Shown here: piece after piece, positions 30,689 through 38,639 of the stretch | How positions within the stretch are numbered: position 1 is the stretch's first letter | How the letters are laid out: each line of letters starts with the position of its first letter | Origin: a virus | Taxonomy: Duplodnaviria > Heunggongvirae > Uroviricota > Caudoviricetes | Length of the DNA: 38,639 bases | Reading direction: 5' to 3' (one strand) | IMG/VR virus record: IMGVR_UViG_2778261594_000006 | Location: 1-38,639 of that record | The notes under the pieces: model-generated | The model's database searches: none | Seen by the model: the letters and a program-made list of their open reading frames with translations, nothing else | Told to the model about the DNA's origin: nothing | Translations under genes and position numbers: made by a program

Positions 30689-32095
30689 ATGGCTACTTGG
30701 CAAGGAACAAACGGCGGATTGTTGGCTGGTATCGGCGGCGTCAACTCAAACGCTCCGAGCGTAAATGACATCGGCAATACGCTTCAGCTTATCAGGCAGA
30801 ACAATGATATTGAGCGTTCAGGCGCTAACAATGTTGGGCTGACTGCTTTGCAAGGCCTTTCAGGTATTGCGGGGGTGTTTCAGCAGGAAAAGCAGGCTCA
30901 GCGGCAGAAAGAATTTCAGCAGGCATACGCTAATGCTTATGCGTCTGGTGATCGCGGTGCTTTGCGTCAGTTGGCTACTCAATATCCAGACCAGATTGAA
31001 TCCGTTCGTAAAGGCATGGGATTCATTGATGAAGAGCAGCGTAATTCTATCGGTACCTTAGCGGCTGGCGCACGCCTTGCGTCATCGTCTCCAGAAGCAA
31101 TGCAATCATGGCTGCAAAACAACGCCAAGGAGCTGGCGCGCGTCGGTGTTGATCCTAACAACGTTGCTCAGATGTATCAGCAGAACCCTTCAGGATTTGG
31201 TGAGTTTGTTGATCACCTTGGAATGGCTGCTCTTGGTCCGATTGATTACTTCAATGTTCAGGACAAGATGGCTGGTCGTGAGATTGACCGAGGCAGGCTG
31301 GCAGAGACAATCCGCAGCAATCAGGCTGGTGAAGCACTTCAGGCGAGAGGGCAAAACCTTTCCTATCAGTCAGCAATGACTGGGCACAATATCGCAGCAC
31401 AACGCTTGGCTCTGGATCAGCAAGAGTTCGGGTTTAAGATGCAGCAAGCGCAGGAAAAGGCTCAGCAGTTGATTAGCGAAGCACCTAAGCTGTCAGTAAA
31501 CATGGAAAAAGGCATCGAGACGGCTGTAAACAATGCCACAGCATCATCAAACTCAGCCAATTCCATGAGTGCGCTTGCTCAACAGTTTAGAGCAGAAAAA
31601 CCAACGACCGGCTTGTTCGGTAACGCACAGAACATGTTCGCAAAACTTACCGGAAGCGATACGACATTGCGTGATTTGCGCATTCGCCAAAATGCCCTTG
31701 TTAACAGTCAGGTTCTTAAATTCCTACCTCCCGGCCCAGCAACGGATAAAGACGTTGAGATCGTTCGACAGGGTGCGCCAACTGACATGGATAACCCTGA
31801 GACGGTCGCAAGATGGCTTGATGCAATGGCAAACCTTGAGCGACGAAACGCGCAGTTTAATGAGTTTAAAGCCGAGTGGATGAGCGCGAATGGCAATCCA
31901 GGACAATCGCGTAATGGCGGTCAGATATTGGGGTTGGATGTTAAAAAAGGTGAATCATTGGGGAGTGCCGTCAAGCGGTATATGTCAATGAATACTGACG
32001 CAGCGCCAGCACAAGATTCGACACCTTCAGGAGAACCACGGAATCAGGTTGGATCATATACCTCAAAATCAGGCATTCAATTTACGGTGGAATGA
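30689..32095 (+). CDS. Ejection protein, P22 gp20-like
   Basis: 468-aa ORF at the gene-20 position with similar size (about 470 aa). Confidence 0.7.
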   Translation: MATWQGTNGGLLAGIGGVNSNAPSVNDIGNTLQLIRQNNDIERSGANNVGLTALQGLSGIAGVFQQEKQAQRQKEFQQAYANAYASGDRGALRQLATQYPDQIESVRKGMGFIDEEQRNSIGTLAAGARLASSSPEAMQSWLQNNAKELARVGVDPNNVAQMYQQNPSGFGEFVDHLGMAALGPIDYFNVQDKMAGREIDRGRLAETIRSNQAGEALQARGQNLSYQSAMTGHNIAAQRLALDQQEFGFKMQQAQEKAQQLISEAPKLSVNMEKGIETAVNNATASSNSANSMSALAQQFRAEKPTTGLFGNAQNMFAKLTGSDTTLRDLRIRQNALVNSQVLKFLPPGPATDKDVEIVRQGAPTDMDNPETVARWLDAMANLERRNAQFNEFKAEWMSANGNPGQSRNGGQILGLDVKKGESLGSAVKRYMSMNTDAAPAQDSTPSGEPRNQVGSYTSKSGIQFTVE

Positions 32096-34098
32096 TGAAA
32101 GTAACTGCAAACGGTAAGACATTTACCTTTCCTGATGGTACTAGCACCGAAGATATTGGCACCGCCATTGATGAGTATTTTGCTGGTCAGTCAGCACCAA
32201 CACAACAAGGTGTTCAGCAATCTCCAGCAGACAACTCACTTGCATCAGGATATGCACAGCTTGCCACTCAGCAGAAGGAAGGACTAGATCGCTCTGCTGA
32301 GCAAGGGGCTGTTTTAGGTGCTGCAATGCGCGATGCCGTTACCGGTGAAAGCCGAATGACACCAGAAATGGAGAGACTGCAAAATGTTGGGTCTGCTCCA
32401 GAGCTTAATAGCTTAAGCACTGATGCGCTGCGTGCTGGACTGGGGCAGCTATTTGGTTCCGACGCTTCACAGGAGAAAATACTGCAAAGTATTGGCGGGA
32501 AAATCCGGAAGGATGAGAAGGGAAATTCCATAGTCACCCTTCCTTCAGGGGAATATGCACTTAACAAGCCTGGTTTGTCACCGCAGGATATAACGTCATT
32601 CTTGGCAAATGCTCTTGCATTCACTCCAGCAGGTAGAGCTGCGTCTGTTGTAGGTGCAACACTAAAATCAGGCGCTACTGATTTAGCTTTACAGGGTGCC
32701 ACTAAGATCGCTGGCGGTGAGAATGTTAATCCAGTTCAAACTGCAATTTCTGCTGGTCTTGGTGGGGTACTGAAGGGTGTAGAAAACACCGCAAGCGCAG
32801 TGTCTCGTTCTGCTATGGGTAAGATTGCTCCTGAAAAACAAGCTCAGATTGACTTTGCCAAGCAGAACAACTTGCCACTGATGACAACAGATCTTGTGGA
32901 ACCGGGAACAAATATTGGTAAGCAAGCACGAGCTATGGCTGAACGAATCCCAATAGCCGGAACGGGTGGGATAAGAAATGCACAGCAAAAGGCCAGGGAA
33001 GATTTAGTTAGAACATTTAGCGATAATGTTGGTGGAATATCTGACGCACAACTTTACCAATCAGCTACTCGTGGTCAGCAGCAATTTATTCAGGCTGCTG
33101 GCAAGCGGTACGACAGGATCATCAGTTTGATGGGGGATACTCCTGTTGACATCACTGGAACAGTGAAAGCAATTGATGAGCAGATTTCCAAGTTAACTCG
33201 CCCAGGAGTATCGCAAGACCGCTCAGCTGTTTCTGTCCTTCAACAGTTTAGAAATGACATCACCAGCGGTCCAAATAACCTGCAATTAGCTAGAGAAAAC
33301 CGTACAAACTTACGTAAGCGCTTTATGGCAGCACCTGACGAGGTCGATAGAGATACGCTGGAGAAAGCTGCGCAGTCTGTTTATAACGCATACACAACAG
33401 ACATGAAAAAAGCGGTTGGCGCAAAACTAGGTGCGAAGGAAGCGCAAAACATGTCGCGTGTTGATCGTTCTTGGGCAAAGTTCAACGACATGATGAGCAA
33501 TACACGTGTCCAAAAAGCTATTCAGAGTGGTAAAACAACGCCAGAAGATGTCACTAAACTAGTATTCAGCCAAAGCCCAGCGGAAAGGGCGCAACTTTAT
33601 CGATTGCTTGATGATAGTGGGCGTCAAAATGCTAGAGCAGCACTTGTTCAGCGTGCAATGGATAAGGCGACAAGCGATTCAGGAAAGCTTAGCGTTGAGA
33701 AGTTTATTAATGAAATGAAAAGGAATCGGAAGCAGGCTGAGACGTTCTTCAGAGGAGAGCATGGGAAACAGCTTGATGGGATAATGAAATATCTTGATTC
33801 CACTAGACAGGCAGCTACTGCTGCCGCAAGCCCACTAACAGGGCAAATGGTAGCTGGTCCAGCAGCGCTGATAACAGCTCTTGCGTCTGTTACAAATCCA
33901 ATGTTTGCAAAAGTTGCGGCAGTTGGAGCTGGTATCGGTATGGCTGGCAGGGGCTATGAGTCACGCGCGATGAGGAACGCATTACTAAAGTTAGCAAACA
34001 CGCCAAAAGGAAGTACTGCTTATGATAGAGCGATCAGACGGGTATCTGAAACTCTTACACCTCTAATTCAGGCTTCAAGTGAGAAAGCCCAGCAGTAA
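32092..34098 (+). CDS. Ejection protein, P22 gp16-like
   Basis: 668-aa ORF at the gene-16 position, ATGA-coupled to the gp20-like gene. Confidence 0.7.
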   Translation: MMKVTANGKTFTFPDGTSTEDIGTAIDEYFAGQSAPTQQGVQQSPADNSLASGYAQLATQQKEGLDRSAEQGAVLGAAMRDAVTGESRMTPEMERLQNVGSAPELNSLSTDALRAGLGQLFGSDASQEKILQSIGGKIRKDEKGNSIVTLPSGEYALNKPGLSPQDITSFLANALAFTPAGRAASVVGATLKSGATDLALQGATKIAGGENVNPVQTAISAGLGGVLKGVENTASAVSRSAMGKIAPEKQAQIDFAKQNNLPLMTTDLVEPGTNIGKQARAMAERIPIAGTGGIRNAQQKAREDLVRTFSDNVGGISDAQLYQSATRGQQQFIQAAGKRYDRIISLMGDTPVDITGTVKAIDEQISKLTRPGVSQDRSAVSVLQQFRNDITSGPNNLQLARENRTNLRKRFMAAPDEVDRDTLEKAAQSVYNAYTTDMKKAVGAKLGAKEAQNMSRVDRSWAKFNDMMSNTRVQKAIQSGKTTPEDVTKLVFSQSPAERAQLYRLLDDSGRQNARAALVQRAMDKATSDSGKLSVEKFINEMKRNRKQAETFFRGEHGKQLDGIMKYLDSTRQAATAAASPLTGQMVAGPAALITALASVTNPMFAKVAAVGAGIGMAGRGYESRAMRNALLKLANTPKGSTAYDRAIRRVSETLTPLIQASSEKAQQ

Positions 34099-34106
34099 AA
34101 AGTTGG

Positions 34107-34499
34107 TTAGCGGTTGATGGTTGCTTTTTTCGGGTCATACCATCTCGGCCATTCTTTCAGGAATGGGAATGAGTCGGGTGCGTGGTTCTTTTTGTACGAT
34201 TTAAGCAGCCTTAACCGCTCAATTGCACACTCATAAACCTCTTGTTGCCCTGTAGTCATCTCGGTCCATGAAAGGTGATCCATTGATAAGACAACGTTTT
34301 CAGCTTCTTTTATGAGGGCGTTTTTATTTCTCACCGCAGCAGCATGGCTGACAGAGCAATCCTGCCATATTCTTAAAAGCCAAATAGCTAAGCAGATGAA
34401 AAAAATGGTAGATAGCGATATATACACACCAACCTCTTTAGTTTTTCTAGTTACTTTGTCACGATAGGATATGCGAAATGATAAAACTAAATTGCGCAC
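34107..34499 (-). CDS. Single-TM membrane protein (130 aa), candidate superinfection-exclusion moron (sieA position)
   Basis: TM segment VYISLSTIFFICLAIWLLRIW; AT-rich; GTG start with weak RBS, so the start is uncertain. Confidence 0.45.
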   Translation of the reverse strand: MRNLVLSFRISYRDKVTRKTKEVGVYISLSTIFFICLAIWLLRIWQDCSVSHAAAVRNKNALIKEAENVVLSMDHLSWTEMTTGQQEVYECAIERLRLLKSYKKNHAPDSFPFLKEWPRWYDPKKATINR

Positions 34500-34687
34500 A
34501 TGATAACTCAGTAATAATTGTTAATGAAAACATGATCACCTATATTGCACAAGGCGAAACAGGAAGCATAATCTGGTTTCATGAGAGTGATCACGCTTGG
34601 GTAAATCAAAGTCAAGAGGAAATACTTGAAATTATCAAAAATAACTATCTAAACGTTGCACACGACTCATCTATCCATTTTTCATAA
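34478..34687 (+). CDS. Questionable small ORF (69 aa) on the opposite strand within the AT-rich cassette
   Basis: ATG with AGGA RBS; overlaps both flanking minus-strand genes. Confidence 0.2.
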   Translation: MIKLNCAHDNSVIIVNENMITYIAQGETGSIIWFHESDHAWVNQSQEEILEIIKNNYLNVAHDSSIHFS

Positions 34688-35226
34688 AATTGTATACCGA
34701 GATAGGCAAGAACAGATGGATGTATATCAACAAGCTTTTCGCCAAGATGTTCTGTTGGAGGTGGATAATCTTTGCCTTGGTTTCTTACGGTTATAGGCAT
34801 AGTTGTTGCTGGATGAAACTCAACTATCATAGGGTCGCCTTCGTATTTTGCTATTTTCCCTGTTGAATCAATGATTAACTCTTTAATATAATGGCTTCTT
34901 GCTCCCGGAAATGCCCCAAGAGTAGTATAAGGAGGTTCAAGTTTTGAGATTTCCATAGTGGAATGATGATCAGCATTTCTTGCTTGGTGAAGGTAAGCAA
35001 GTGTTTTGTCTGTTTTTCTAAGCATGAACTTTTGGTTGAAGTGGCTGCTAAATTTTCCACTAACCGGCTTTGTTGCACAGAGCAACTTACTGAAAGACTT
35101 TTCTATATGCCCAAGACATTCTCGCCAGTGCATTTCAAAATCATCATGGTTTGTAGATGATTTCATCTGCTCTAGGCACTTTTTAGCTGCGATTATTTCT
35201 TTTTTTGCTGGGTTGTAATCGATCAT
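34645..35226 (-). CDS. Hypothetical protein (193 aa) translationally coupled to mnt; candidate lysogen-expressed exclusion/defense protein
   Basis: ATG overlaps the mnt stop (ATGA); AT-rich; no recognizable domain by eye. Confidence 0.55.
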   Translation of the reverse strand: MIDYNPAKKEIIAAKKCLEQMKSSTNHDDFEMHWRECLGHIEKSFSKLLCATKPVSGKFSSHFNQKFMLRKTDKTLAYLHQARNADHHSTMEISKLEPPYTTLGAFPGARSHYIKELIIDSTGKIAKYEGDPMIVEFHPATTMPITVRNQGKDYPPPTEHLGEKLVDIHPSVLAYLGIQFYEKWIDESCATFR

Positions 35227-35480
35227 TTTGCATCCTTGCCATACATGGTTTTCAGCGTCTCAACATCGTGTTCAAGATCTATCAATCGTGATGCTATAGT
35301 TGCAAGGTCTAGTGCTTGAATGTGTTTATTTTTTTCTGTCCACGCCTCAAGTGCCGCGACCATCTCAGCATTTAATGAACGAGAATTAGCCTCAGCCAGT
35401 TCAATAAGACGTTCCTTTATCTCTACAGGAAGCCTCAGATTCACTTGAGGGTTTTTGTACTTACGATCAGACATCGGCAC
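35223..35480 (-). CDS. mnt: Mnt-like ribbon-helix-helix repressor (immI)
   Basis: 85-aa ORF; VNLRLPVEIKERLIELAEANSRSLNAEMVAAL parallels P22 Mnt (FNFRMPMEVREKLKFRAEANGRSMNSELLQIV); divergent from arc-ant. Confidence 0.75.
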   Translation of the reverse strand: MPMSDRKYKNPQVNLRLPVEIKERLIELAEANSRSLNAEMVAALEAWTEKNKHIQALDLATIASRLIDLEHDVETLKTMYGKDAK

Positions 35481-35577
35481 ATCCTGAATAATTTTTTACC
35501 ACAGGATATGTAGGTATCTATTGACTATCAATGCGTACCTAAATACTATGTATGCGTACCACATACAAAGGAGCAAA
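35481..35577. promoter_or_regulatory. immI divergent promoter/operator region (Pmnt / Pant)
   Basis: Inverted repeat ATTGA-cta-TCAAT (about 35518-35530) and two direct ATGCGTACC repeats (35530-35538, 35552-35560). Confidence 0.4.
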
Positions 35578-35724: not shown

Positions 35725-35791
35725 AGTAAAGCCCAAGCTATTGCGAGTAGCTCGGGCTTAAATCGCCAGTAAATTTTGAGGAAAAACTGAC

Positions 35792-36721
35792 ATGAAAAGT
35801 ATAGCAACAGCAGTATCTACTATCAACGTGCCATTCCACGGCGCAGAGCTTTATGTCGTCAATCACAACGGTGAGCCGTACACCCCAATGAAACCTATCG
35901 TTGAAGGTATGGGTATGGATTGGGCTTCACAGTTTACGAAAATAAAGCAACGGTTTAAAACCTCCATTGTGAAAATCACAATGCAGCTTCCTGGTGATGA
36001 ACAGTGCCGTGAGATTATTTGTTTGGCACTTCGCAAACTTGCTGGCTGGCTGCAAACCATCAGCCCTAACAAAGTCCGCCCTGAAATCCGCGACAAGGTA
36101 ATCCAGTATCAGGAAGAGTGTGACGATGTGCTCTACGAGTACTGGACTAAAGGCCATGTAGTTAACCCACGCAAAGCTAAAAGGGCGTTGCCGGGTAAAA
36201 TCACCACTGAACAGCAGGAAGCCATTAAACAACTCGTCATGAGTCGCGGTCAGTCTCTGCCAAAAGAAAAACAGGCTAAGGCGATGATCACCATGTGGTC
36301 GTCACTGAAATCCCATTTTGGATGTTCGTACAAAGAAATCAGTGAGGAGCAGTTTACCGAAGCACTGTCACTTGCAGCTCGAGTTCCACTTGAAGGTGAG
36401 TTCATTGGCAAACAAGAGAAGAAAACCAACGAGCTTTCTGCAAAAGAAGCAAACAGCCTTGTATGGTTATGGGATTATGCTAACCGTTCACAGGCATTAT
36501 TCCGCGAACTGTATCCGGCATTAAAACAAATTCAATCGAACTATTCCGGCAGATGCTACGACTACGGTCATGAATTCTCGTATGTTATCGGAATGGCGAG
36601 AGACGTTTTAATCAATCACACACGAGATGTTGATATCAATGAGCCAGACGGACCAACGAATCTTTCCGCATGGATGAGACTTAAGAATAAAGAATTACCT
36701 CCTTCAGTACATAACTACTGA
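35792..36721 (+). CDS. ant: Antirepressor Ant
   Basis: 309-aa ORF downstream of arc in the immI arrangement; followed by a terminator. Confidence 0.7.
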
Positions 36722-36821: not shown

Positions 36822-38639
36822 ATGTCAAATATCACCGCCAATGTTGTGGTAAGCATGCCTTCGCAACTCTTCACTATGGCTCGTTCTTTTAAAGCCGTAG
36901 CCAATGGCAAAATTTATATCGGTAAAATTGACACGGATCCGGTAAATCCTGAAAACCAGATTCAGGTTTATGTGGAGAACGAAGACGGCTCTCACGTTCC
37001 TGTTTCTCAACCAATCATCATTAACGCTGCTGGTTATCCGGTATATAACGGACAGATTGCCAAGTTCGTTACAGTGCAAGGCCATTCTATGGCTGTATAT
37101 GATGCATATGGCACTCAGCAGTTTTATTTTCCAAATGTATTAAAATACGATCCAGATCAGTTAAGGCAACAGCTTGAGAGTAGTTCTGGTGCTGACATAG
37201 TCATGACTGGATCAGCTCCATTCATTGTTAGAAGTGTTGGCGACATTCTAAAAGACATTCCTACCAATAAATATTTTGGTGCCAAATGTGATGGTGTAAC
37301 TGATGATACAGTAGCAAATCAAACTGCTCTTGACTGGTCTGCTGATAACAAAAGAGATATTATTTTTGTAGGTAAAAGTTGTATAACTGAAAGACTTATT
37401 CATAAATCAGGTTCACGAGTCACGCATCTCGGAGAAATAAAACCCCGTGACTTTTCAGATGATGTTGTTATTGAGGTAAAAGACGACGCGTGGAGGGATC
37501 CTTACAATGATGGAATAACGGCAATAGATACAGGTGATAGAGTTCATATTGATGGTCTATATATTGCCCCTGACTCTGTAATAGATGCTGTTGGTATTCT
37601 TGGTACTGATGGAGTGGATCCGATCATATCAAGATTAAGAACATTCAACATGAGAAGGGGAGGAATTAAGATTGTTAAGGGGTATGGATGGAACATATCA
37701 AACATTTCAATCATTGCACCTTTTGATCAAAATAACTCTCATGATTATGCAGGAATTAGACATGAAACGTCAGATTCATTTTATTCTAACGTTATAGTTT
37801 CAGGATATACTACTGGACTTGATATGCCTGGAAATGCTAATCAAGTATCAAAGGCCCACTGCTGGGGAATGTCATCACCAGATAGAACCACTCGTAATAT
37901 GTTATTCGGCCTTAAAATGAGCGGTAGTGGTAATAACGTAGTGCAATTCTATTCTGACTCACCGAAAAAAATAAACAAAACACAAGCAGCCAGTATTACA
38001 AATGGAGGGATTGGTTATGTAATTTCTGGTTTTAACAACACATTTTTATCACCTAGGAACCTATCTCATCAGGATTGTGGCTTGAAATATGGTAAGGTTT
38101 TTCTGATATCTGGTTCTGAGAATACCTTTATTAGCCCCTTAATAGGTGATTATGCATACATTGAAGATGATGGATTTTTCACATTTACAGATTCGGCAAG
38201 CCCGCTAAACAACTATGTTTATGGTGGAAATATGCAATCTACATATTTGTATCCAATCGCAAGCGGTAGCTACAAGCCAACAGTAAATATACCGTGTACA
38301 TATACAAATCAGTCATATACGCATAATATTTTACAAAAAAACGTAATTGGACGTGTAGTTATAACATGCAATATAACTAATAATTCTTCAGGAGATACAT
38401 TTTACATTCAACTACCTCCTTACCTATCAACAATAGCAGGTAGTGCTGTTGGCTCAATAACAAATAATCTTACAACCTCAATAAGATCAGATACCAATCT
38501 TTTTGCCGTAGAGCCTTATGTGGCAGATGGAAGGATATATTTCAGGAGAATATTTAGAGCTGGAGCATCAGACGATATAAAACAAAACATGTTTAATACA
38601 GGAAACGCATTCTTTGATATATCAATAAACGCAAGATAA
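36822..38639 (+). CDS. Tailspike protein: P22 gp9-type N-terminal head-binding domain fused to a divergent beta-helix receptor-binding domain
   Basis: First about 110 aa ([46 protein letters not shown]...VLKYDPDQ) match the P22 tailspike head-binding domain; the remainder is AT-rich and unrelated to the P22 endorhamnosidase domain; stop at the window end. Confidence 0.9.

What the first reader, a model, noticed from the sequence alone, without database searches (positions are those of the whole stretch)
34107..35480. AT-rich accessory cassette co-transcribed with the mnt repressor: candidate undescribed superinfection-exclusion or anti-phage module
Downstream of the Mnt-like repressor, on the same strand and overlapping it by ATGA, is a 193-aa protein with no recognizable domain, followed by a 130-aa single-pass membrane protein. 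Both are visibly AT-richer than the flanking structural genes and sit where P22 carries sieA. Coupling to mnt, which is lysogen-expressed in P22, predicts expression from the prophage, which is the signature of exclusion or defense cargo. An opposite-strand 69-aa ORF (34478-34687) overlaps both and may instead be the real gene in the middle.
Basis: inference. Interest (0 to 1): 0.7.

Follow-up and report, generated by a model that had tools for sequence, protein, structure and literature searches.

The report
Prophage cargo: putative solo HEPN RNase
Next to the mnt repressor of this P22-like E. coli phage sit two independent accessory genes, one of which belongs to a large, never-annotated protein family that has the fold and invariant catalytic motif of HEPN ribonucleases and is probably a prophage-expressed anti-phage "suicide" enzyme.

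Summary
The ORFs exist, with corrections. The window is a P22-like (Lederbergvirus) E. coli phage. The 193-aa gene (34645-35226, minus) overlaps mnt by ATGA and has no Pfam, NCBIfam, PADLOC or PDB-sequence match. It does belong to a large unnamed family (1,772 clusters at 50% identity). R83 and H88 (R-x4-H) are invariant in 127 diverse members, and N/D/H follows the R in 89%. A confident AlphaFold model (pLDDT 96.6) puts this motif at the end of core helix 3 of a four-helix bundle, as in HEPN RNases, with a variable beta domain inserted before helix 4. Homologues are solitary, AT-rich, opposite-strand morons in at least six phage backbones and diverge much faster than their flanks.

My best reading is a latent, solo HEPN-type abortive-infection RNase expressed from Pmnt, functionally like HepS or Tha but not detectably related to them. 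The function is inferred, not shown.

The "130-aa" ORF is really a 106-aa single-pass membrane protein starting at GTG 34427. It replaces the sieA ORF exactly and keeps sieA's ribosome-binding site. The two genes are separate mosaic units, not one cassette. The opposite-strand 69-aa ORF has no support as a gene.

The parts
35223..35474 (-). mnt-type ribbon-helix-helix repressor gene. It is 83 aa from ATG 35474; the mechanical ORF starts at GTG 35480. It is a chimera: an mnt1-type body with its last residues (GKDAK) taken from a P22-type mnt2.
   Evidence: Pfam Arc, E 3e-10. It is 95% identical to mnt1 of CUS-3 and L056. L022 carries mnt1 (...LKCMYSNNKDES) followed by mnt2 (...LKNMYGKDAK), whereas the window gene ends ...LKTMYGKDAK. 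The shared p193 module reaches window position 35263.
35503..35531 (-). Pmnt-like sigma-70 promoter (TTGATA-17-TATCCT), facing a Pant-like promoter at 35521-35549 on the plus strand. A 39-bp palindromic operator lies at 35507-35545.
   Evidence: Promoter scan, inverted repeat I1, and the same layout as the annotated Pmnt/Pant/operators of P22. These are consensus matches only.
34645..35226 (-). p193: a soluble 193-aa protein and member of a large unannotated family. It is predicted to be a HEPN-like four-helix bundle with an inserted beta domain.
34963..34980 (-). Codons R83-N84-A85-D86-H87-H88: the invariant R-x4-H motif at the C-terminal end of helix 74-88.
   Evidence: R83 and H88 are present in 127 of 127 members. 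Position 84 is N in 69, D in 30 and H in 14 of 127. Helix 74-88 is the most conserved segment (entropy 1.29, against 2.4-3.1 elsewhere). The motif position matches the HEPN definition in PMC3710099.
34765..34962 (-). Residues 89-154: a beta-strand domain inserted between core helix 3 and core helix 4. It is the most variable part of the family.
   Evidence: DSSP on the model shows 8 strands. It has the highest entropy (2.86) and 44 insertion columns. A role as sensor or specificity domain is inference.
34428..34644 (-). Spacer that travels with p193. It holds no terminator or stable RNA structure. It contains a promoter-like site (TTATCA-17-TATCAT, 34478-34506) and the SD AAGAGG (34433-34438) for the sieA-slot gene.
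   Evidence: fold z-score -0.45. The module boundary lies at 34424-34448. The string AAGAGGTTGGTGTG is also seen, with one mismatch, in front of P22 sieA (AGGAGGTTGGTGTG), and the same upstream module precedes sieA in L002. In P22, PsieA lies within 85 bp upstream of sieA (PMC10883804).
34107..34427 (-). p106: a 106-aa protein with one N-terminal transmembrane helix (residues 2-21) and a conserved basic C-terminal domain. It occupies the sieA ORF slot.
   Evidence: It matches PHROG 10450, of unknown function. It is present in phages N7 and HZ41 and in 57 of 5,426 E. coli genomes.
34478..34687 (+). 69-aa ORF convergent with p193, overlapping it by 43 nt. It is judged not to be a gene.
   Evidence: 0 synonymous against 7 non-synonymous variants, one of them in the start codon. 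No family hit. No tblastn hit in the phage or plasmid collections. Absent next to the 62%, 48% and 47% identical homologues. Not called by PGAP.

Best explanation
The interval holds two separate accessory genes in the variable region between gene 16 and mnt of a P22-like E. coli phage.

(1) p193 is a member of a large, unnamed protein family. Its fold and invariant R-N/D/H-x3-H motif place it in, or next to, the HEPN ribonuclease superfamily. It is transcribed with mnt from Pmnt in the lysogen. This is inferred from the ATGA coupling and from the P22 layout, where the mnt terminator follows the gene downstream of mnt. The protein is proposed to sit in the cell as a latent RNase and to be switched on by a component of an infecting phage, possibly through its variable beta domain. 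It would then cut tRNA or other RNA and abort the infection. That makes it a single-protein abortive-infection defence of the HepS/Tha type.

(2) p106 is a small single-pass inner-membrane protein. It has replaced the sieA reading frame exactly, keeping sieA's ribosome-binding site, start codon and upstream promoter region. It is therefore probably also made in the lysogen and acts at the envelope. An exclusion role is a guess from position alone.

Shown: the gene models, the mosaic independence of the two genes, the family size, the invariant motif, the predicted topology, and the solitary AT-rich moron contexts.
Inferred: RNase activity, lysogen expression, activation by a trigger, and a defence phenotype.
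For: - **Family and motif.** A profile search finds 1,772 clusters (1,296 at E<=1e-10). In 127 diverse members (mean column identity 28%), W34, Y78, R83, H88 and P157 are invariant. The residue after R is N, D or H in 89%.
- **Structure.** AlphaFold with the 127-sequence alignment gives pLDDT 96.6 and pTM 0.89. The elements are helices 5-23 and 27-51, an extra helix 60-72, helix 74-88 ending in R83..H88, beta strands 94-154, and helix 170-191. PMC3710099 defines HEPN as a four-helix bundle that often has an insert between helices 2 and 3. [quoted passage not shown]
- **Conservation pattern.** The motif helix is the most conserved segment and the beta domain the most variable.
- **Context.** Homologues are solitary, on the opposite strand to their neighbours, and AT-rich (GC 0.34-0.41 against flanks of 0.47-0.59). 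This holds in several unrelated phage backbones, at prophage edges and in IS-flanked islets.
- **Rate of change.** In one slot of two related phages the homologues are 46% identical, while the flanking lysis genes are 94-100% identical.
- **Coupling to mnt.** The ATGA or 1-nt-junction arrangement is seen with three different mnt alleles. P22 annotates the mnt terminator after orf59a and a separate PsieA.
- **p106.**
- **Precedents.** Prophage-encoded solo HEPN Abi proteins that are non-toxic until triggered: HepS (PMC13043305) and Tha (PMC11087260).
Against: - There is no sequence-level link to any HEPN family. Pfam hmmscan of 127 members found none. The profile against PDB sequences found nothing. 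Foldseek against PDB gave no hit below E=1. hhalign against Tha-1 gave no signal.
- I could not check that R83/H88 superpose on the catalytic R/H of solved HEPNs, nor that a dimer forms a composite site.
- A second near-invariant histidine (H160, in a PPxxH motif) is not part of the HEPN definition and might indicate a different active site.
- There are no expression or phenotype data.
- No terminator is detectable after p193, so the transcript architecture is unknown.
- For p106 there is no functional evidence at all beyond position and topology.
Confidence: 0.5

Rival explanations
1. Mnt and p193 form a type II toxin-antitoxin or addiction pair. The ribbon-helix-helix protein would neutralise the HEPN-like toxin and autoregulate the operon, stabilising the prophage.
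For: The gene order (RHH first), the 4-nt ATGA overlap and the small sizes are typical of type II TA operons. An RHH gene precedes p193 in all P22-like loci, and also precedes the 62% identical homologue in L051, which lies outside an arc-ant context.
Against: Nearly identical p193 (>=99%) is paired with two Mnt types that are only 34% identical to each other. In the window, the adjacent P22-type mnt was deleted by recombination without loss of p193. The partner is a bona fide Mnt, matching Pfam Repressor_Mnt, with its own known job of repressing Pant. Homologues at 48% identity or less are solitary in several other phage and island contexts, with no conserved neighbour.
Confidence: 0.1
2. p193 is not a nuclease or defence protein. 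It would be a helical-bundle-plus-beta-domain protein with another role, such as a regulator of lysogeny, a lysogenic-conversion factor or an anti-defence protein. The conserved R/H would then serve binding, or a different chemistry together with H160.
For: No statistical sequence link to HEPN. The fold matches are generic in score. There is an extra near-invariant PPxxH motif. No defence-catalogue hit.
Confidence: 0.27
3. One reading: p193 and the membrane protein act together as one co-transcribed two-gene exclusion or defence module.
For: They share a strand and have no detectable terminator between them. They are adjacent in the window, in L001, L011, L014 and L022, and in 2 complete E. 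coli genomes.
Against: They assort independently. A recombination boundary lies exactly at the start codon of p106. Distant p193 homologues never have a p106-like neighbour.
Confidence: 0.06
4. The 69-aa plus-strand ORF (34478-34687) is a real gene, for example a late-expressed inhibitor of p193. This would resemble Ith, which overlaps tha convergently in phage 80alpha.
For: Its ATG is preceded by AGGA at an 8-nt spacing (read directly from the sequence). It lies on the late-operon strand. Its convergent 3' overlap with p193 resembles the tha/ith arrangement (1662-2567 minus, 1525-1725 plus).
Against: 0 synonymous against 7 non-synonymous variants, including one in the start codon. No homologue anywhere. 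It is absent next to the 62%, 48% and 47% identical homologues. The small convergent ORFs found there are not significantly similar to it. It is not annotated by PGAP. Several ORFs of 58-70 codons occur by chance in this AT-rich stretch.
Confidence: 0.06

Closest known systems
HepS (Gifsy-1 prophage, Salmonella; PMC13043305; PDB 9OIJ/9OIK)
   Same: A single roughly 200-aa prophage-encoded protein with one RX4H motif (R100-H105 in HepS, R83-H88 here). It has no partner gene, sits in an accessory-gene slot and is presumably expressed constitutively in the lysogen. HepS is non-toxic until triggered, which would explain the solitary occurrence of the p193 family.
Tha-1/Tha-2 (S. aureus prophages; PMC11087260)
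   Different: Tha is 301 aa, with an N-terminal region of unknown fold, and has a cognate inhibitor (Ith) on the opposite strand. hhalign of the p193 family against Tha-1 shows no similarity. No inhibitor is supported here.
HEPN superfamily toxins (HepT/DUF86, e.g. 5YEP and 7AE2; Csm6; AbiV, AbiD/F, AbiU2)
   Same: A four-helix bundle with Rx4H at the end of helix 3 followed by N, D or H, and an insert between helices 2 and 3. Csx1 also has a beta hairpin right after the motif.
   Different: No Pfam HEPN-type model matches any of 127 members. There is no MNT or other partner. The large beta domain and the extra PPxxH motif are not described for any HEPN family I could find.
P22 immI-flanking cargo (orf59a, sieA) and the equivalents in CUS-3, N7 and HK620-type phages
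   Same: The same two slots between gene 16 and mnt. The same Pmnt/Pant/sar layout and the same SD-GTG in front of the sieA-slot gene.
   Different: The contents are unrelated proteins: p193 instead of orf59a, and p106 instead of SieA. p106 has one TM helix and lacks the SieA motif.

Membership tests
HEPN superfamily | [quoted passage not shown] | tested here: met
HEPN superfamily | Conserved Rx4-6H motif at the end of helix 3 / start of the loop to helix 4 | tested here: met
   R83 and H88 are invariant in 127 of 127 members and lie at the C-terminal end of helix 74-88. The definition is from PMC3710099.
HEPN superfamily | Residue after the conserved R is polar, mostly N, D or H | tested here: met
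   Position 84 is N in 69, D in 30, H in 14, G in 13 and S in 1 of 127 members.
HEPN superfamily | Second conserved acidic residue in helix 2 (Ex3[KR]) | tested here: inconclusive
   E42 is acidic in 66% of members and is followed by K/R43 and K47. E31 is acidic in 77%, with K/R at +4 in 44%. The spacing is not the canonical one.
HEPN superfamily | Statistically significant sequence or profile similarity to an established HEPN family | tested here: not met
   Pfam scan of 127 members found no HEPN family. PADLOC found none. The profile against PDB sequences found none. Foldseek against PDB gave E>1. hhalign against Tha-1 found none. A full HHpred search against Pfam/PDB profiles could not be run.
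HEPN superfamily | Metal-independent RNase activity dependent on R and H; dimer forms a composite active site | not testable with these tools
   No biochemistry is available.
HepS family | Sequence homology to STM14_3211 (found by PSI-BLAST in the paper) | tested here: not met
   No PDB-sequence hit at E<=10 for the family profile, although the paper gives 9OIJ and 9OIK as the deposited HepS structures. I did not check that they are held in the PDB copy searched. I could not recover the HepS sequence itself; it is not in the LT2 Gifsy-1 record.
Type II toxin-antitoxin (RHH antitoxin + toxin) | Specific, co-evolving antitoxin partner always adjacent to the toxin | tested here: not met
   Identical p193 is paired with Mnt alleles that are 34% identical to each other. 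Distant homologues are solitary.
SieA superinfection exclusion proteins | Polytopic inner-membrane protein with the FxRYPxEAxxFNK motif, in the slot between genes 16 and 9 | tested here: not met
   p106 occupies the slot but has one hydrophobic helix and lacks the motif. The L002 SieA has both features. There is no similarity by BLAST or HMM.
Known defence systems (PADLOC-DB v2.0.0) | Match to any model | tested here: not met
   0 families at E<=1 for p193, p106 and the 69-aa ORF.
P22 Mnt repressor | Arc-type RHH N-terminal domain; divergent from arc-ant, with a shared operator region | tested here: met
   Pfam Arc, E 3e-10. Divergent promoters and a 39-bp palindrome. arc, ant (P22_AR_N/C) and a sar-like RNA lie downstream. 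The C-terminal Repressor_Mnt Pfam domain is not matched by the window allele, but it is matched by the mnt2 allele of L022.

The most novel reading that the evidence does not exclude
p193 founds a new, widespread HEPN family in which the sensor is built into the catalytic domain: a hypervariable beta domain inserted directly after the catalytic helix. The P22-like phage would protect its own lytic cycle by reading the late operon antisense through the gene, or through the convergent 69-aa ORF acting as an Ith-like inhibitor. In that case the mnt-proximal slot would be a dedicated defence hotspot wired to the immI switch, on in the lysogen and silenced on induction.
Probability: 0.12. Interest if true: 0.75.

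Novelty: new variant of a known kind. Interest (0 to 1): 0.55.

Why it matters
Single-protein HEPN defences carried by prophages have only recently been worked out (Tha in 2024, HepS in 2026), and each came from one phage lineage. This work points to a family of about 1,800 sequence clusters with the same catalytic signature and a different architecture. It is found in Enterobacteria, Vibrio, Providencia, alphaproteobacteria and marine and soil metagenomes, is called 'hypothetical' everywhere, and is missing from Pfam, NCBIfam and PADLOC.

If its activity is confirmed, it would add a new entry to the defence catalogues. It would also offer a compact system for studying how a sensor domain gates a HEPN site. 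And it would identify the region between gene 16 and mnt of P22-like phages as a swap site for lysogen-expressed cargo: sieA, p106, p193, and the CUS-3 and N7 genes.

The test is simple: one 582-bp gene and two point mutants.

Tried and rejected
- **Related-locus search.** It worked with the 8-sequence alignment on viral contigs.
- **AFDB.** Foldseek against afdb50 is not installed.
- **First structure model.** The 8-sequence model was mediocre (pLDDT 80), so I repeated it with 127 sequences.
- **Phage collection.** tblastn of p193 against 50,697 phage records found nothing, although PHROG 23516 is a full-length match.
- **HepS sequence.** I looked for it in the LT2 Gifsy-1 record, but no ORF there has R100-x4-H105.
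- **Tha-1.** hhalign of the family against Tha-1 gave no signal.
- **HepT sequences from PDB.** A DUF86-like consensus written from memory returned only short fragments, so I abandoned it.
- **Convergent small ORFs.** I suspected that o69, the L004 81-aa ORF and the L008 93-aa ORF shared an 'FH' motif. phmmer with filters off finds no cross-hit at E<=10, so I rejected this.
- **Fusion proteins in the family.** These gave only a weak DUF6941 hit.
- **Spacer RNA.** Folding of the p193-p106 spacer is no better than shuffles.
- **Rfam.** The only hit is the sar-like RNA outside the interval.
Full report
**1. What is in the sequence**

The window is a P22-like (Lederbergvirus) temperate phage of E. 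coli. Its virion genes are 94-96% identical to CUS-3, Kapi1 and relatives. The region is laid out as follows:
- a gene-16-type ejection protein, 32092-34098 (+);
- a 130-aa ORF, 34107-34499 (-);
- a 193-aa ORF, 34645-35226 (-);
- an Arc/Mnt-type gene, 35223-35480 (-);
- arc (+), ant (35792-36721, +; Pfam P22_AR_N/C) and the tailspike (from 36822).

The ATGA overlap of mnt and the 193-aa ORF is real, and the ORF has its own AAGGA ribosome-binding site. Divergent promoter-like sites and a 39-bp palindrome lie between mnt and arc. A sar-like antisense RNA lies between arc and ant (29 bits, below Rfam's threshold). This is the layout annotated in P22. GC falls from about 0.47 to 0.33-0.40 across 34200-35550.

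**2. Corrected gene models**

The 130-aa ORF is over-extended. Three lines of evidence agree:
- PHROG 10450 covers only residues 25-127.
- Phage N7 annotates the same gene at 106 aa.
- Homologues 65-77% identical are 103-106 aa long and begin MYISLS.

The true start is GTG 34427, five bases after AAGAGG. The product, p106, has one N-terminal hydrophobic helix (Kyte-Doolittle 2.05) and a conserved, mildly basic 85-residue domain.

mnt most likely starts at ATG 35474, giving 83 aa.

**3. Two mosaic units, not one cassette**

Megablast against 5,426 complete E. coli genomes splits the interval into three pieces:
- up to 34448, carrying p106;
- 34424-35263, carrying the spacer, p193 and the last roughly 13 codons of mnt;
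- the rest of mnt.

The p193 unit is found next to sieA (L002), next to YobH plus a 122-aa gene (L003), or next to p106 (L001). p106 is found without p193 in phage N7 (with ORF15 and ORF16) and in L056. p193 is in 21 genomes, p106 in 57, and the two together in 2.

The boundary between the units falls at the translation start of the sieA-slot gene. The window has AAGAGGTTGGTGTG in front of p106, and P22 has AGGAGGTTGGTGTG in front of sieA. In L002 the same upstream module precedes sieA, as shown by the 86% identical 30-codon extension of its annotated ORF. p106 is therefore an ORF-precise replacement of sieA that keeps sieA's initiation signals and upstream region. In P22 the sieA promoter lies within 85 bp of the start codon (PMC10883804), and a promoter-like site lies at 34478-34506 here.

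In P22 the gene after mnt is orf59a. The mnt terminator is annotated after it, ahead of PsieA. So p193 occupies the orf59a slot, inside the mnt transcription unit. CUS-3, N7 and L056 carry unrelated genes in these slots, which makes the region a cargo swap site.

**4. The mnt gene is a recombinant**

CUS-3, L056, L011 and L022 have two mnt genes in tandem:
- mnt1, 94-95% identical to the window's gene in the three loci where it is intact (it is frameshifted in L011), ending ...LKCMY(G/S)NNKDES;
- mnt2, the P22 type, matching Pfam Repressor_Mnt. Its C-terminus varies between loci, and the L022 allele ends ...LKNMYGKDAK.

In most P22-like loci p193 follows mnt2 directly. The window's mnt ends ...LKTMYGKDAK. 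It is therefore mnt1 fused to the tail of mnt2 at the shared LKxMY codons, with the rest of mnt2 deleted. p193, at 99% identity or more, is thus coupled to Mnt proteins that are only 34% identical to each other. A 62% identical homologue is coupled to a third allele (L051). This argues for operon hitch-hiking rather than a specific toxin-antitoxin pairing.

**5. What p193 is**

The single-sequence search found only seven relatives. A profile search of 1.84 billion cluster representatives found 1,772 clusters at E<=0.001 and 1,296 at E<=1e-10, almost all 170-220 aa long.

No member carries a Pfam domain or a name in any source. Hosts include E. coli, Citrobacter, Providencia, Vibrio, Thalassospira and many metagenomes. 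The family has no hit in PADLOC, NCBIfam or PDB sequences.

Conservation in 127 diverse members (mean column identity 28%):
- W34, Y78, R83, H88 and P157 are invariant.
- R70, D73, A82 and H160 are nearly invariant.
- R83-x4-H88 is followed at position 84 by N, D or H in 89% of members.

With this alignment AlphaFold gives pLDDT 96.6 and pTM 0.89. The predicted elements are helices 5-23 and 27-51, a short helix 60-72, helix 74-88, eight beta strands over 94-154, and helix 170-191.

The published definition of the HEPN superfamily (PMC3710099) has four features:
- a four-helix bundle;
- a frequent extra element between helices 2 and 3;
- N, D or H after the R.

p193 matches all four. [quoted passage not shown]

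Three caveats apply:
- Generic bundles score equally.
- Foldseek finds nothing significant.
- No sequence-profile link to any HEPN family was obtained.

I therefore rate 'HEPN superfamily, new family' as probable, at roughly 0.65-0.7, not as proven.

**6. Context points to a lysogen-expressed, fast-evolving, self-sufficient function**

Outside P22-like phages the homologues stand alone, usually on the opposite strand to the flanking phage genes. Examples:
- between a 485-aa gene and the lysis cassette (the L029/L048 group);
- between HNH/terminase genes and the lysis genes (L037);
- beside an HNH endonuclease (L024);
- at a prophage end next to the tailspike (L004);
- beside HipBA at a prophage edge (L058);
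- next to a terminase remnant (L060) or an IS1595 element (L061).

Clustering of all neighbouring ORFs finds no partner shared across backbones.

Every homologue examined is AT-rich against its flanks, with GC 0.34-0.41 against 0.47-0.59. In one slot of two related phages the homologues are 46% identical, while the adjacent spanin and endolysin genes are 94-100% identical.

Within the family the motif helix is the most conserved segment (entropy 1.29). The beta domain is the most variable (2.86, with 44 insertion columns). A conserved catalytic core with a diversifying domain is the pattern expected for a defence protein that recognises phage components. That last step is inference.

**7. Mechanism proposed**

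p193 is made in the lysogen from Pmnt. It stays inactive, which explains why it needs no antitoxin. This is the case for HepS, which is constitutively expressed, non-toxic when overexpressed and activated by a phage tail-tip protein (PMC13043305). On infection a phage product would engage the beta domain, expose or assemble the R83/H88 site (probably across a dimer), and RNA cleavage would abort the infection.

p106 would be made from the sieA-type promoter and would act at the inner membrane. Its role is unknown, and exclusion is only a positional guess. It lacks SieA's multiple TM helices and its motif.

**8. The 69-aa ORF**

It exists and has a possible AGGA upstream. The evidence against it as a gene is as follows:
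- All 7 polymorphic sites in 17 loci are non-synonymous in its frame, against 10 synonymous and 8 non-synonymous in p193.
- It has no family or homologue.
- It is absent beside the more distant p193 homologues.
- The small convergent ORFs seen there are not significantly similar to it.

The convergent overlap of tha and its inhibitor ith in phage 80alpha is a positional analogy worth a ribosome-profiling check. I give it about 6%.

**9. Verdict**

The main result is a large, unannotated, probably HEPN-type family of solitary prophage morons. It is a new variant of a kind of system that has recently become known through HepS and Tha. Function remains to be shown experimentally.

Noticed in passing
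window 35223-35480 (compare L022 3722-4263 and L055 2210-2739): The window's mnt is a deletion chimera of two tandem mnt paralogues. It has the mnt1 body plus the last residues (GKDAK) of a P22-type mnt2, joined at shared LKxMY codons. CUS-3, L056, L011 and L022 still carry both genes.
   Followed up: yes
window 34424-34448; P22 L057 around 2831-2850: The mosaic boundary falls exactly at the SD-GTG of the sieA-slot gene. AAGAGGTTGGTGTG precedes p106 here and AGGAGGTTGGTGTG precedes P22 sieA, so unrelated ORFs are swapped behind one conserved initiation region. RefSeq start calls for sieA in L002 (188 aa) and for the p106 gene in L001 (130 aa) are probably 24 codons too long.
   Followed up: partly
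window 35725-35791 (-): A full-length match to Rfam sar RNA (RF00262) in the arc-ant spacer. It scores 29.3 bits, below the gathering score of 43 (E 0.004). It lies where P22 annotates sar.
   Followed up: no
L050 (phage N7) 4109-4949; L055 (CUS-3) 818-2167; L056 2909-3467; L003 2397-2982: The stretch between gene 16 and mnt holds different, mostly unannotated cargo in each P22-like phage: N7 ORF15/ORF16 (ORF16 also abuts mnt), CUS-3 0007/0008/hkcB, a 121-aa plus a 59-aa gene, and YobH plus a 122-aa gene. It looks like an accessory-gene hotspot that has not been surveyed for defence functions.
   Followed up: partly
window 35507-35545: A 39-bp imperfect palindrome (18-nt arms, 78% complementary) sits between the Pmnt-like and Pant-like promoters and is presumably the Mnt/Arc operator region. 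arc probably starts at ATG 35579 (48 aa) after AAAGGAG, not at 35552.
   Followed up: no
L058/L059 8001-10170: In a Thalassospira prophage a p193-family gene lies at the prophage edge, directly beside a HipA-HipB (HTH_31) toxin-antitoxin pair and an S24 peptidase. This is another accessory or defence-type neighbourhood.
   Followed up: no
L063 (phage 80alpha) 1525-2567: The HEPN defence gene tha-1 (gp03) and its inhibitor ith-1 (annotated excisionase, gp02) are convergent and overlap by 64 nt at their 3' ends. The geometry matches p193 and the 69-aa ORF (43-nt overlap).
   Followed up: partly
window 36822-38639: The tailspike gene runs off the end of the window and is as AT-rich (GC 0.33-0.38 beyond about 37200) as the cargo genes. 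Only its N-terminal roughly 120-200 residues match other P22-like tailspikes (65-91% identity), so the receptor-binding part is a separate mosaic piece.
   Followed up: no
p193 residues 156-162 (window 34741-34761): A second strongly conserved motif, P-P-x-x-H-L-G (P157 invariant, H160 in 121 of 127 members), lies between the beta domain and the last helix. It is not part of the HEPN definition and might contribute a second catalytic histidine.
   Followed up: no
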